Part shown: positions 21,001 to 24,000 of the stretch, in pieces
Numbering within the stretch: the first letter of the stretch is position 1
Layout of the letters: each line of letters begins with the position of its first letter
Assembly (NCBI RefSeq): GCF_054482595.1
Contig: NZ_JBTHVH010000004.1
Length of the DNA stretch: 64,000 nucleotides
Direction: 5' to 3' (one strand)
DNA from: a plasmid
Made by a program: the position numbers

Positions 21001-24000
21001 TCTATATCAGATGCGGACAAGTTTATAAATCATGTTCGTCGCTATTTAGCAGGCAGGGTAATGAAGAGGCGGATATACGCTGAATTAGATGTTTGTGAAG
21101 AAACATCAAGTATTTCACTAGTGAACTTAGGATGCTTTACGTCTCCTCTGCTCGTTACGGAATATCAAATGTTTAAGCCACACTCTTCAGGGTTATATCG
21201 AAAAGCTATAAACAACTCCTTAAAACAGTTCAAACCAGAAATGCATGTACCTTCTGAAGAACTCTTTTATAATTAATCTAACCCATCCGGGAACCTGCTT
21301 CCCGGTGGGAAGCACTTCCTTTTTAGTCATGAGGTAGTGTAAATGTTTAAAGAATCTGACCACGTGGAATTTGTTAGTGCCTTTCTTTATCAAAATTTAG
21401 GCCTTAATGTTTCCGCTGACGATATAACCGTTCAATTATCTGATACTTCGTTCGACAAAGTAACCTTTGATTACGATGTAGATATCGATAATTTAAATTG
21501 TATGTTGGATCTCTACATATCTGAGCTAATAAAGCACAACGCATCTTACTCCGATTCTATTCTTTTGAAACAAAAAATAATTTATTTTCTTGGAGTATTT
21601 AAGAATTTCGGATTTTTTACGTTTGATATTCGCGGATATAGTAATACTTTAAGCCCAGTTAAAGTTATTGATATTGTTTCAATGATTATTAATGACTGTG
21701 AAGAGTTATCTAAAGCTAATTCTTCTACTGATGCTATAAGAAATCTTTATCTCGATAAAATGAAGGTGGATGGGAAAGTGTTAGTTGCGAAATTTGCACT
21801 TAAACAGTTTTTTCATTCCGACTTTGGTGACTTTATCTCATTTGTCGAGAAAAGAATTACAGATTGTCTTAATGAAACTTTAAGGATTATCAAAGCTGTT
21901 GAACATGGCTTTGTACGTGTAGGGCAGCATAAGATTAATCGCCGTATTAATGATGACTTAAAGTTATGCATTGATTTCAATACTGATGATTATCCGGCAA
22001 ATATGCCAGATATATATATTAAGTTTAACGATACATTTGATGGGAACGGGGCGTTATATTGTGACAATGATGCCCTCATATCCCTCTATACCGATGTTGC
22101 TTCAATTATCAATGTGCCGGTGATGATGGAAGTAAGATTGATCAATAAAAGAGGGCGTGTTGTCTGTGATTCTTCGCATTCAACTTACGTATCTCTCGAA
22201 AGTAATGACCGATACAGAGTAACTGATCGCACATTACTAATAACTGAAGCTTTTGACGATTTTCGTAACGCGTCTCAATGATCCTTTTGCTTCAGTCCAA
22301 AAAAGTAACTTTGGTTGGCTGAAGACACTTGTCTATGACAATGTAAAATCTGTCGCTGGCATCTTCTTTTAGCTTAACCAAATTTTTATCTAACCCAGTG
22401 GGGAAGTCGCTTCCCTTCTGGGGCACTTCCTCTCAAATTCGAGGTAGTGTATATGACACATTCATCTGATGATAAAAACTATGTCCGAGCAGTTCTGAGT
22501 TATCTTGGCATAGATTTTGATGAGGCGGATATAGTATTAAGTGTTTGCCATTGTCAAAGTGACGAGCTTTCTTTTACCTGTAATATCAAAGCTATTGAAC
22601 TCAAGAATGTTGTTGATTTATATGTCGATAGTATCTCTGAGAATGAAATAGAAGCTTTAAACAGAGAATCTTTAAAATCGCGACTCTGTTACTTTCTTGA
22701 GGTGTTTGACGCAGTCTCTGGTCAGTACCTTGAAATTTCAGGAAAACACTTTGCAACTAGTCGTTTTGAATATGATGATGTTTGTAGTGAAGTTCTTAGC
22801 ATGTCTAATGATGTTTCTCAGTCGAAAGGTTATGACCGGGATGAATATAACAGACTGATGCAGGTTGATGGTCAGGTTATGATTGCCCGTTTTGCTTTGC
22901 AACAGTTCTGGGATACTCATTTTATTGGACTAATAACATTTGTATCTGAGTCTATAACATCGAGCCTCTATAAAGCTTATGAAACTTTTAGTGATATTAG
23001 TTTGGCTTGCTATAAACTGAGTGAATATTCTTATTCACGCTCTATCAACAGTGAATTGACCCTTAATATTTCACTTAAAGAAAATGACTTCTGTGAGGAC
23101 CTATCTGATTGCTATATGGAAGATGAGGCTTTACCTTCTGGTAGGGTAATTTCTCGACGCAACAATGACTCCATAATAAGTATTTATGAGAGCTATGCTG
23201 CGGCTTCTTATATTCCGATGATTGCATCTTTGGAAGTCGTTGATGAATACGGCGAAGTGGTTACTGACCTCTGCCATACCGTTTATGTTTCAGAGTTAAC
23301 CGGTGGGCGGATTAAAATCCACGACCGTAATGACTTAGTATCTGAAGTTTTCGATAACCTAAGAAATTTAAATCTTGCAGTTGGAGATTCAGTTTCACAA
23401 GCTGCTTGATTCTTTCCCTGATTTTGATTTTTTCTCACATACTCTTATGGCACGGTTTCCGTGCCTTTTTTTTGCCTCGCTTACAAGCGTCTACTCCTCT
23501 TCTACCTATCCCACCTTACATCACCACTTAAAATCTATCTTTCTAATTCCATTATCCTTTTCGTAGCCTCTAATGCTCTGGTATGAACATACTCTTTAAA
23601 CTCAAAAAAGTGCTATTAACGAAAAAAAATCCCTAAAGAGATTTGTATACTGTTCTCAACCAAGGAGAGCTCATGAATGAACTAAAATCCAAAAACGAGA
23701 ACAGTACCAAAAGCAACTTTCCCCCGGTTGATAATCAGTTTTGCTTTTACCATGTTGATTTCAGCATAGAACGACTACTTTCTACGGCCGAGGATCTCCA
23801 GCTTGAGTACATCTTCCAGAAACCTGGAAGTGAAGTAAGAAAGGATTTGGTTGAGCGATTCGAACGTGGAGAGCGCTTTGTTACAGCTTCACACTGTGAC
23901 AATTTCTGTGAAATCCTTGGTTGTCAAGGCCATCAGGAAAATGCATAAACCCATAAACCTACATTTCCACTTTTAAGGATGTTCACTAAAGAATGATTGG

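What the first reader, a model, noticed from the sequence alone, without database searches (positions are those of the whole stretch)
23470..23640. Strongly G-depleted, pyrimidine-rich plus-strand block after the paralog array
Immediately after the terminator at ~23449-23473, about 130 bp (CTCGCTTACAAGCGTCTACTCCTCTTCTACCTATCCCACCTTACATCACCACTT...) contains very few G on the plus strand. Such strand asymmetry outside a CDS can mark a structured non-coding RNA, a protein-binding tract or a single-strand initiation-type element.
Basis: seen in the sequence. Interest (0 to 1): 0.3.

Follow-up and report, generated by a model that had tools for sequence, protein, structure and literature searches.

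The report
Rho-loading-like C-rich spacer in IncHI plasmids
The G-poor block is real: an unusually C-rich, unfolded, untranslatable spacer just after a standard terminator in an IncHI2 resistance plasmid, and it most likely acts as a loading site for termination factor Rho, which would make it an ordinary kind of regulatory element.

Summary
Window 23490-23562 is a 73-nt run without G, twice the next longest in 64 kb. The best 78-nt window has 29 C and 3 G.

The window is IncHI2 (R478-type) backbone. The tract lies in a 263-bp spacer between a ~318-aa ORF with an intrinsic terminator (23449-23473) and a 91-aa ORF that heads a cluster containing a Tus homologue.

The tract is not a structured RNA and not a single-strand initiation element. 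It is the least foldable plus-strand RNA segment in the window. It has no Rfam hit, no ssDNA hairpins, no repeats and no Ter site.

It meets every sequence criterion published for a Rho utilisation (rut) site, at extreme values:
- Its C>G bubble ranks 1 of 1,620 by peak, with area about 3,780 %·bp.
- It has six suitably spaced YC dimers.
- It has no start codon and no Shine-Dalgarno motif.

In IncHI1, pPSV-type and a fourth lineage, the same spacer holds the locus-wide strongest C>G tract. Against IncHI2 the tract sequence is not alignable and four-fold sites are saturated. So composition is conserved, not sequence.

Best reading (about 0.5): a Rho-dependent back-up terminator or insulator. 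This is a new member of a known kind. No transcription data were available.

The parts
22453..23409 (+). Last ~318-aa ORF of the upstream co-directional array (no Pfam or PDB match). Its stop codon at 23407-23409 opens the untranslated spacer.
   Evidence: ORF list; RefSeq annotation of the identical plasmid pD90-1; Pfam and PDB searches negative; 28% identity to the preceding ORF.
23449..23473 (+). Intrinsic terminator: 7-bp stem (6 G-C pairs), 3-nt loop, then T8.
   Evidence: Terminator scan; fold -12.5 kcal/mol, z -3.7; sequence conserved in IncHI1 and pPSV-type plasmids (local alignment z 10.7).
23475..23575 (+). C-rich, G-poor, unstructured tract with no start codon (G-free run 23490-23562). 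Candidate Rho utilisation (rut) site.
   Evidence: Composition; C>G bubble ranks 1 of 1,620 by peak, area 3,779 %·bp, (YC)N9-13 chain of 6; MFE -3.2 kcal/mol; least structured plus-strand segment in the window; no ATG/GTG/TTG between 23475 and 23572 and no SD-like motif; composition but not sequence conserved across lineages.
23576..23672 (+). Sequence-conserved proximal block: A-tracts at 23604-23609 and 23622-23629, invariant 18-mer AGAGATTTGTATACTGTT at 23637-23654 (contains the -10-like TATACT at 23646-23651), and SD AAGGAGAG at 23662-23669. Probably the promoter/operator and ribosome-binding site of the downstream cluster.
   Evidence: Alignment of three lineages; 93% identity between IncHI1 and pPSV against 65-69% for the rest of the spacer; IncHI2 vs IncHI1 local alignment z 14.1; 18-mer unique in the window. 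Promoter function is inferred; no consensus -35 was found.
23673..23948 (+). 91-aa ORF, first gene of the downstream co-directional cluster, which includes a Tus (Ter-binding) homologue at 25994-26974.
   Evidence: Annotation; homologues at 47-51% identity in the same position in IncHI1 and pPSV-type plasmids; Pfam PF05472 for the Tus homologue.

Best explanation
The tract (about 23475-23575, plus strand) is a Rho utilisation (rut)-type RNA element. It sits in the untranslated spacer between two co-directional transcription units of the IncHI backbone. RNA polymerase that reads through the intrinsic terminator at 23449-23473 transcribes about 100 nt of C-rich RNA. That RNA is almost free of G, unfolded and ribosome-free, with no start codon and no Shine-Dalgarno motif. 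Such RNA is what the Rho hexamer binds. Rho would then translocate and release the polymerase within the next ~60-150 nt (about 23560-23700). That is before or at the conserved promoter/RBS block of the next cluster, which begins with the 91-aa ORF and includes tus. The result would be a tandem intrinsic plus Rho-dependent terminator that insulates the downstream unit from upstream transcription. Shown here: the composition, the lack of structure, the absence of translation signals, the position, and conservation of composition without conservation of sequence. Inferred: that the plus strand is transcribed across the tract, that Rho binds it, and that termination follows.
For: (1) Published rut descriptors are met at extreme values. 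The C>G bubble spans 265 window starts. Its area is 3,779 %·bp. Its peak %C-%G of 33.3 ranks 1 of 1,620 bubbles on both strands. Its (YC)N9-13 chain is 6 long. In Nadiras et al. 2018 (PMC6144790), every tested template with a bubble over 78 bp or an area over 700 terminated with Rho in vitro, and known terminators carry a chain of at least 4. The C/G ratio is 29/3 = 9.7. In RhoTermPredict's E. coli set, only 37 of 4,494 validated predictions had a ratio of 3 or more (PMC6407284). (2) The RNA is unstructured. MFE is -3.2 kcal/mol over 101 nt. The seven least-structured of 6,391 plus-strand 100-nt windows all lie in the tract, and the same spacer is least structured in the IncHI1 and pPSV loci. 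(3) It is ribosome-free by sequence. It follows a stop codon, has no ATG/GTG/TTG from 23475 to 23572, and the only SD-like motif in the spacer is the real RBS. (4) It is on the sense strand of a ~24-kb run of co-directional ORFs. (5) Comparative evidence. In IncHI1, pPSV-type and a fourth metagenomic lineage, the locus-wide strongest 78-nt C>G window lies in the same spacer (C 28-30, G 5-6). The chance of that placement in a 9-kb locus is about 412/(2 x 8,954) = 0.02. Four-fold sites between IncHI2 and IncHI1 are saturated at 29-38% identity. The tract sequences align no better than composition-matched shuffles (z 0.9 and -1.3), while the flanking terminator and proximal block align at z 10.7 and 14.1. 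So composition is retained, not sequence, as expected for a rut site. (6) Tandem intrinsic and Rho-dependent termination is documented (Ahmad et al., bioRxiv 10.1101/2022.07.21.500918; review PMC12360218).
Against: No transcript, 3'-end or Rho-dependence data exist for this locus, and none was found in the literature searches. C>G bubbles are common: 286 bubbles of 80 or more window starts on both strands of this 64-kb window (4.5 per kb of sequence), and about 2.2 per kb in E. coli by the authors' own count. Sequence descriptors therefore have low specificity. The upstream intrinsic terminator looks competent (T8, -12.5 kcal/mol), so little read-through may reach the tract. Within the IncHI1/pPSV clade the tract evolves at the neutral rate: 65% identity against 60-75% at four-fold sites. 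G is not visibly avoided at variable sites there (15%, against 11-16% in neighbouring spacer segments). The selection argument therefore rests on one deep split. Only one pause-consensus match lies downstream (23664). IS1 sits inside the tract in one plasmid and an IS1203-bounded fragment starts within it in another, so it is dispensable for plasmid survival. That is compatible with a terminator but shows no strong requirement.
Confidence: 0.5

Rival explanations
1. The tract is the 5' leader of the downstream (tus-containing) cluster. A promoter at or just after the terminator would start transcripts that carry the tract. It would then act as a conditional Rho-dependent attenuator or as an unstructured ribosome stand-by leader.
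For: No consensus sigma-70 promoter lies between the tract and the ATG. Weak promoter-like sites precede the tract at equivalent positions in IncHI1 (5065-5093) and pPSV (5060-5087). A -10-like TATACT/TACTCT just before the terminator hairpin is kept in all three lineages, with a strong full match (TTGAAT-18-TATACT) in IncHI1. Rho-dependent terminators in 5' UTRs are known (PMC12360218; PMC4052769, listed).
Against: The candidate promoters score within the background range (353 plus-strand hits at score 7 or more in the window). In IncHI2 only about 10 nt separate the terminator from the tract. The IncHI1 strong match would start transcripts 1-3 nt before the complete terminator hairpin. The tract ends about 100 nt upstream of the SD, too far for a stand-by site. 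The block conserved in sequence lies next to the RBS and contains a -10-like hexamer, which suggests the promoter is downstream of the tract.
Confidence: 0.15
2. The tract has no function. It is a compositional relic of an ancestral spacer, or the product of local mutational bias, and is carried along neutrally.
For: The tract is the least sequence-conserved part of the spacer between IncHI1 and pPSV (65%), equal to the rate at four-fold sites. G is not specifically avoided at variable sites in that clade. IS elements interrupt it without loss of the plasmid. An IncHI2-like metagenomic variant has a G inside the G-free run (L015).
Against: IncHI2 and IncHI1 are saturated at four-fold sites (29-38% identity), and the tract sequences are unalignable. 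Both still hold their locus-wide extreme of C>G and of unfoldedness in the same spacer. Other spacers of the same cluster have 21% G and 19% C, so neutral decay should have erased the bias.
Confidence: 0.17
3. It is a DNA-level element: a strand-asymmetric binding tract for a nucleoid-associated or plasmid-encoded protein, or an upstream part of the downstream promoter.
For: It lies 70-130 bp upstream of the conserved promoter-like block. IncHI plasmids encode their own Hha (annotated) and, from general knowledge, H-NS.
Against: There is no repeated motif, iteron, palindrome or tandem repeat. GC content is about 40%, not the AT-rich profile of H-NS sites. The sequence is not conserved across lineages, which argues against a sequence-specific DNA-binding site. 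No Ter consensus is present for the nearby Tus homologue.
Confidence: 0.08
4. It is a structured non-coding RNA or sRNA gene on either strand.
For: It is intergenic and strand-asymmetric. An Rfam sub-threshold hit, ncS54, spans 23390-23472 (19 bits against a gathering score of 43), but that hit covers the 3' UTR and terminator, not the tract.
Against: Fold z-scores are -0.7 and -0.9 for the spacer. The tract is essentially unpaired. No Rfam family reaches threshold. The minus strand has no terminator after the hairpin and no conserved promoter. No sequence conservation is available to support covariation.
Confidence: 0.04
5. It is a single-strand initiation (ssi) or ssDNA-promoter (Frpo-like) element, or a priming site used on transferred single-stranded DNA.
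For: The host is a conjugative plasmid, and a toprim-domain protein is encoded about 6 kb upstream.
Against: Both strands folded as ssDNA give only short weak hairpins (-8.5 and -9.7 kcal/mol over 171 nt; z -1.7 and -1.1). Known ssi and Frpo elements depend on extended stem-loops (general knowledge). The locus follows the Tra2 genes (trhN). From general knowledge, IncHI oriT lies in the Tra1 region, so this is not expected to be a leading region.
Confidence: 0.03

Closest known systems
Rho utilisation (rut) sites of Rho-dependent terminators (e.g. lambda tR1, E. coli trp t')
   Same: About 80-100 nt of C-rich, G-poor, unstructured, untranslated RNA with YC dimers spaced 9-13 nt, on the sense strand after a stop codon. 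The element is defined by composition rather than by a sequence motif, which matches the conservation pattern seen here.
   Different: Rho binding and termination have not been demonstrated. The bias is much stronger than typical (C/G 9.7, with a 73-nt G-free run). The tract directly follows a competent-looking intrinsic terminator.
Tandem or cooperative intrinsic plus Rho-dependent termination at 3' UTRs (trp t / t'; Ahmad et al., bioRxiv 10.1101/2022.07.21.500918)
   Same: An intrinsic hairpin with a U-tract is followed by a region suited to Rho loading. The assumed role is to stop read-through into the next unit.
   Different: The documented cases are chromosomal genes in mycobacteria and E. 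coli. Here it is a plasmid backbone junction conserved across IncHI lineages, and the arrangement is inferred from sequence only.
5'-UTR Rho-dependent attenuators (e.g. the pgaA leader, PMC4052769; riboswitch-linked cases, PMC5499598)
   Same: A Rho entry site lies in untranslated RNA upstream of a gene cluster.
   Different: Those sites are usually masked or exposed by RNA structure, sRNAs or proteins. Here no alternative structure is predicted, and no TSS upstream of the tract is supported.
Plasmid ssi / Frpo single-strand elements
   Same: An intergenic, strand-specific feature of a conjugative plasmid.
   Different: Those elements work through extensive ssDNA hairpins. This tract is the least structured segment of the window.

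Membership tests
Rho-dependent terminator / rut site | Uninterrupted C>G bubble of about 80 nt or more on the non-template strand (78-nt sliding window) | tested here: met
   Bubble spans 265 window starts (23339-23680), area 3,779 %·bp, peak %C-%G 33.3, rank 1 of 1,620 by peak. Criterion from PMC6144790.
Rho-dependent terminator / rut site | At least four YC dimers spaced by 9-13 nt ([(YC)N9-13]4) | tested here: met
   Longest chain is 6 in IncHI2, 7 in IncHI1 and 9 in pPSV. There are 19 YC dimers in the best 78-nt window.
Rho-dependent terminator / rut site | RNA largely free of secondary structure | tested here: met
   MFE -3.2 kcal/mol over 101 nt. Least structured plus-strand 100-nt segment of the window and of both relatives' loci.
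Rho-dependent terminator / rut site | Ribosome-free (untranslated) RNA | tested here: met
   Downstream of the stop at 23407-23409. No ATG/GTG/TTG in 23475-23572 and no SD-like motif before 23663. Actual translation status was not measured.
Rho-dependent terminator / rut site | RNA polymerase pause or release sites within about 150 nt downstream | tested here: inconclusive
   One GGN8YG pause-consensus match at 23664. No GC-rich hairpin was seen in the spacer folds.
Rho-dependent terminator / rut site | The tract is transcribed in this orientation | not testable with these tools
   Inferred from the ~24-kb run of co-directional ORFs. No RNA-seq was available, and literature searches found none for this locus.
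Rho-dependent terminator / rut site | Rho- or bicyclomycin-sensitive transcript ends, or Rho-stimulated termination in vitro | not testable with these tools
   Requires experiment.
Intrinsic (Rho-independent) terminator (the element at 23449-23473) | GC-rich hairpin immediately followed by a U-tract | tested here: met
   Conserved in IncHI1 and pPSV-type plasmids.
Structured ncRNA (any Rfam family) | Match to a covariance model at gathering score, or a fold significantly more stable than shuffles | tested here: not met
   The best hit overlapping the spacer reaches 19 bits against a gathering score of 43 and lies on the terminator, not the tract. Fold z-scores are -0.7 and -0.9.
ssi / Frpo single-strand DNA elements | Extended stable stem-loop(s) in one DNA strand | tested here: not met
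   ssDNA folds of -8.5 and -9.7 kcal/mol over 171 nt, z -1.7 and -1.1. The core is unpaired.
Tus-binding Ter site | Match to the Ter core consensus GNRNGTTGTAAYKA | tested here: not met
   No match with 2 or fewer mismatches within 3 kb of the tract. There were 19 matches in the window against 26.7 expected. The plasmid Tus may recognise a different site, which was not tested.

The most novel reading that the evidence does not exclude
The tract is a conserved, composition-defined control point specific to IncHI plasmids. It would be a conditional Rho-loading site, or a platform for a plasmid-encoded protein that binds C-rich single strands. Its efficiency would be tuned, for example by temperature, H-NS/Hha or antitermination. 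That tuning would set how much transcription from the upstream ORF array reaches the Tus-containing cluster, and so couple plasmid replication-termination functions to the plasmid's regulatory state.
Probability: 0.08. Interest if true: 0.45.

Novelty: new member of a known kind. Interest (0 to 1): 0.2.

Why it matters
IncHI1 and IncHI2 plasmids are major carriers of multidrug and colistin resistance, yet most of their backbone is annotated only as 'hypothetical protein' with no mapped transcription units. If the reading holds, it marks a transcription-unit boundary: a tandem intrinsic plus Rho-dependent terminator followed by a conserved promoter-like block. That boundary separates a five-ORF array of unknown function from the cluster that contains the plasmid's Tus homologue. 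The locus is also a clean example of an element conserved in composition but not in sequence. Alignment-based conservation scans miss this class. The practical impact is modest, because Rho-dependent terminators are common and well understood.

Tried and rejected
- **Rfam, permissive threshold:** only sub-threshold noise.
- **RNA folds of the spacer, both strands, and ssDNA folds:** nothing significant.
- **Repeats:** no iterons or arrays. The only finding is a 10-mer that occurs twice.
- **Ter consensus for the nearby Tus homologue:** fewer matches than chance, and none nearby.
- **RfaH ops element:** no exact site, and none upstream in the sense orientation.
- **Sigma-70 scans:** no strong or positionally conserved promoter in the IncHI2 spacer.
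- **Invariant 18-mer as a regulon motif:** unique in the window.
- **DNA-level search for diverged homologues of the spacer in plasmids:** every match is at least 90% identical, so relatives had to be reached through the flanking proteins.
- **Protein search with the 91-aa ORF:** only near-identical hits.
- **Genome-contig scan with the protein alignment:** nothing found.
- **L010 and L015 metagenomic contigs:** L010 is 98% identical to IncHI2 overall and L015's spacer 99%, so they are uninformative on selection.
- **IS-insertion hot-spot idea:** of four interrupted plasmids, two have the IS in or at the tract and two have it in neighbouring genes. There is no clear hot spot.
- **Test for G-avoidance at variable sites within the IncHI1/pPSV clade:** no signal.
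- **Literature searches for IncHI transcript maps:** none found for this region.
- **Pfam and PDB on neighbouring proteins:** only Tus was recognised.
- **Metagenome scan with the 18-mer:** 24 loci, of which 13 were chance matches. The scan yielded one additional lineage (L032).
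Full report
**Source and setting.** The window is IncHI2 plasmid backbone. Window 23380-23700 is 100% identical to R478 (NC_005211.1, 53261-53581) and to more than 1,100 other IncHI2 plasmids of Escherichia, Salmonella, Enterobacter and Klebsiella. The finding lies in a 263-bp spacer (23410-23672) inside a ~24-kb run of co-directional plus-strand ORFs that follows the Tra2 gene trhN. Upstream is the last of five ~300-aa ORFs, which have no Pfam or PDB match. Only the last two are clearly paralogous, at 28% identity. Downstream is a 91-aa ORF (ATG 23673) that heads a cluster of small ORFs ending with a Tus (Ter-binding) homologue at 25994-26974.

- 23470-23600 holds 10 G in 131 nt. 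23475-23565 holds 4 G in 91 nt.
- 23490-23562 is a 73-nt run with no G. That is twice the next longest G- or C-free run in the window.
- In 300 Markov simulations the longest such run never exceeded 65 (mean 42, sd 4.7).
- The best 78-nt window, starting at 23475, has 29 C and 3 G. This is the largest C-minus-G excess in the window on either strand.
- GC skew stays at -0.5 for about 250 nt.

**What the tract is not.**
- It is not a structured RNA. The spacer folds no better than shuffles on either strand (z -0.7 and -0.9). The tract itself is almost entirely unpaired (-3.2 kcal/mol over 101 nt). Rfam gives only sub-threshold noise.
- It is not an ssi or Frpo-type single-strand element. With DNA parameters, both strands give only short weak hairpins.
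- It has no direct, inverted or tandem repeats of note.
- It has no Ter consensus site, despite the nearby Tus gene.
- It has no ops element.

**What it resembles.** The tract has the published sequence properties of a Rho utilisation site, at extreme values.
- Under the C>G bubble definition of Nadiras et al. (PMC6144790), the bubble spans 265 window starts. Its area is 3,779 %·bp and its peak %C-%G is 33.3. That peak ranks 1 of 1,620 bubbles on both strands.
- In that study, every template with a bubble over 78 bp or an area over 700 gave Rho-dependent termination in vitro.
- The tract carries a chain of six YC dimers at 9-13-nt spacing; known terminators have at least four.
- Its C/G ratio is 9.7. 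In RhoTermPredict's E. coli set, only 37 of 4,494 validated predictions reached 3 or more (PMC6407284).
- The seven least-structured of 6,391 plus-strand 100-nt windows all lie in the tract.
- Because it lacks G, it cannot contain ATG, GTG, TTG or a Shine-Dalgarno motif. No such signal occurs between 23475 and 23572. RNA made from it would therefore be ribosome-free.

**Comparative evidence.** No diverged DNA homologue of the spacer exists in the plasmid collection. Relatives were therefore reached through the flanking proteins.
- IncHI1 (pHCM1/R27 type), a pPSV-type IncHI1B plasmid and a fourth metagenomic lineage (L032) keep the same gene order, with spacers of about 410 bp.
- In each, the strongest 78-nt C>G window of the whole fetched locus lies in this spacer (C 28-30, G 5-6). 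In IncHI1 and pPSV the bubble ranks first by area and by peak, and the same stretch is the least foldable plus-strand RNA of the locus.
- Calibration matters here. IncHI1 and pPSV are 60-75% identical at four-fold degenerate sites, and their tracts are 65% identical. Within that clade the tract drifts at the neutral rate, and G is not detectably avoided at variable sites.
- IncHI2 and IncHI1 are saturated at four-fold sites (29-38% identity). Across that split the tract sequences align no better than composition-matched shuffles (z 0.9 and -1.3). The flanking terminator and the block next to the RBS remain clearly alignable (z 10.7 and 14.1).
- Other spacers in the same gene run have 21% G and 19% C.
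- The tract therefore keeps its composition and lack of structure while its sequence has turned over completely. That is the pattern expected for a rut site. It is hard to reconcile with a neutral relic or with a sequence-specific DNA-binding site. This argument rests on a single deep split.

**Anatomy of the spacer.**
1. A 3' UTR and intrinsic terminator, conserved in sequence.
2. The C-rich tract, conserved in composition only.
3. A proximal block at 23576-23672 that is 93% identical between IncHI1 and pPSV. It contains two A-tracts and an invariant 18-mer, AGAGATTTGTATACTGTT, which is unique in the window. The 18-mer includes a -10-like TATACT. The block ends with the SD.

No consensus -35 was found. 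The block is only inferred to be the promoter/operator of the downstream cluster.

**Proposed mechanism.** Polymerases that escape the intrinsic terminator transcribe about 100 nt of naked C-rich RNA. Rho loads there and releases them within the next ~60-150 nt, before or at the downstream promoter and start codon. This would be a tandem intrinsic plus Rho-dependent terminator that insulates the Tus-containing cluster from upstream transcription. The arrangement has precedent (Ahmad et al., bioRxiv 10.1101/2022.07.21.500918; review PMC12360218; trp t/t' from general knowledge).

**Caveats.**
- No transcription data are available for this locus.
- C>G bubbles are frequent in any genome, so the descriptors have low specificity.
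- The intrinsic terminator may leave little read-through for Rho to act on.
- Only one pause-consensus match lies downstream.
- IS1 is inserted in the tract in pKA2-2 (target duplication 23494-23502), and an IS1203-bounded fragment begins at 23534 in pTB44P1. The tract is therefore dispensable for plasmid maintenance.
- The main rivals are a 5'-leader role, if a promoter sits at or just after the terminator, and a functionless compositional relic.

**Verdict.** The most likely identity is a Rho-loading tract that forms a back-up terminator or insulator (confidence about 0.5). This is a new, unannotated member of a well-known kind. Interest is low to modest.

Noticed in passing
window 23637-23654: The 18-mer AGAGATTTGTATACTGTT is identical in IncHI2, IncHI1 and pPSV-type plasmids and unique in the window. 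It lies 19 nt upstream of the ATG of the first gene of the cluster that contains the Tus homologue. It contains a -10-like TATACT and loosely resembles the Ter core with one extra base (TTGTATACT against TTGTAACT). From memory, E. coli tus is autoregulated through TerB at its own promoter, so this could be an operator for the plasmid Tus. The resemblance is not statistically supported.
   Followed up: partly
L002 4968-4997 (IncHI1 pHCM1); equivalent window 23418-23445: A strong sigma-70-like match (TTGAAT-18-TATACT) ends about 8 nt before the terminator hairpin in IncHI1. The -10-like TATACT/TACTCT is kept at that position in all three lineages. A transcript started there would consist of little more than the terminator hairpin. 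It may be chance or a tiny RNA.
   Followed up: no
window 23437-23446 and 23587-23596: The exact 10-mer ACATACTCTT occurs twice in the IncHI2 spacer, once just before the terminator and once just after the G-poor tract.
   Followed up: no
window 23494-23502 and 23534; L012 (p3498); L014 (R27): Several mobile elements have landed at this junction in different plasmids: IS1 inside the tract (pKA2-2), an IS1203-bounded fragment that starts in the tract (pTB44P1), IS200C in the IncHI1 spacer (p3498), and IS2 in the last upstream ORF of R27 itself.
   Followed up: partly
window 18403-23409: The five tandem ~300-aa ORFs called a 'paralog array' have no Pfam or PDB match. Only the last two are clearly related (28% identity); the other three are 12-16% identical to the last. 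The array is conserved in order across IncHI1, IncHI2 and pPSV-type plasmids.
   Followed up: partly
window 54624-55101 and 56256-56402: This is the largest plus-strand C>G region by area (5,124 %·bp). It also has two 36-nt G-free runs (54984-55019 and 56367-56402) and a pyrimidine-rich patch at about 56260. All lie in a ~3-kb stretch that holds only short ORFs.
   Followed up: no
window 30149-30638 and 3279-3827 (minus strand): The largest C>G bubbles overall are on the minus strand and overlap plus-strand ORFs in the ORF list. That is the usual pattern thought to let Rho suppress antisense transcription.
   Followed up: no
L005 2915-3000 (Klebsiella MOBH plasmid p503666-2-2019a): A distant relative of the Tus-containing cluster (34% identity to the 91-aa ORF) has only an 86-bp spacer with a terminator. 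It has no C-rich tract and no upstream ORF array. The tract therefore appears only in the plasmid lineages examined that also carry the array.
   Followed up: partly
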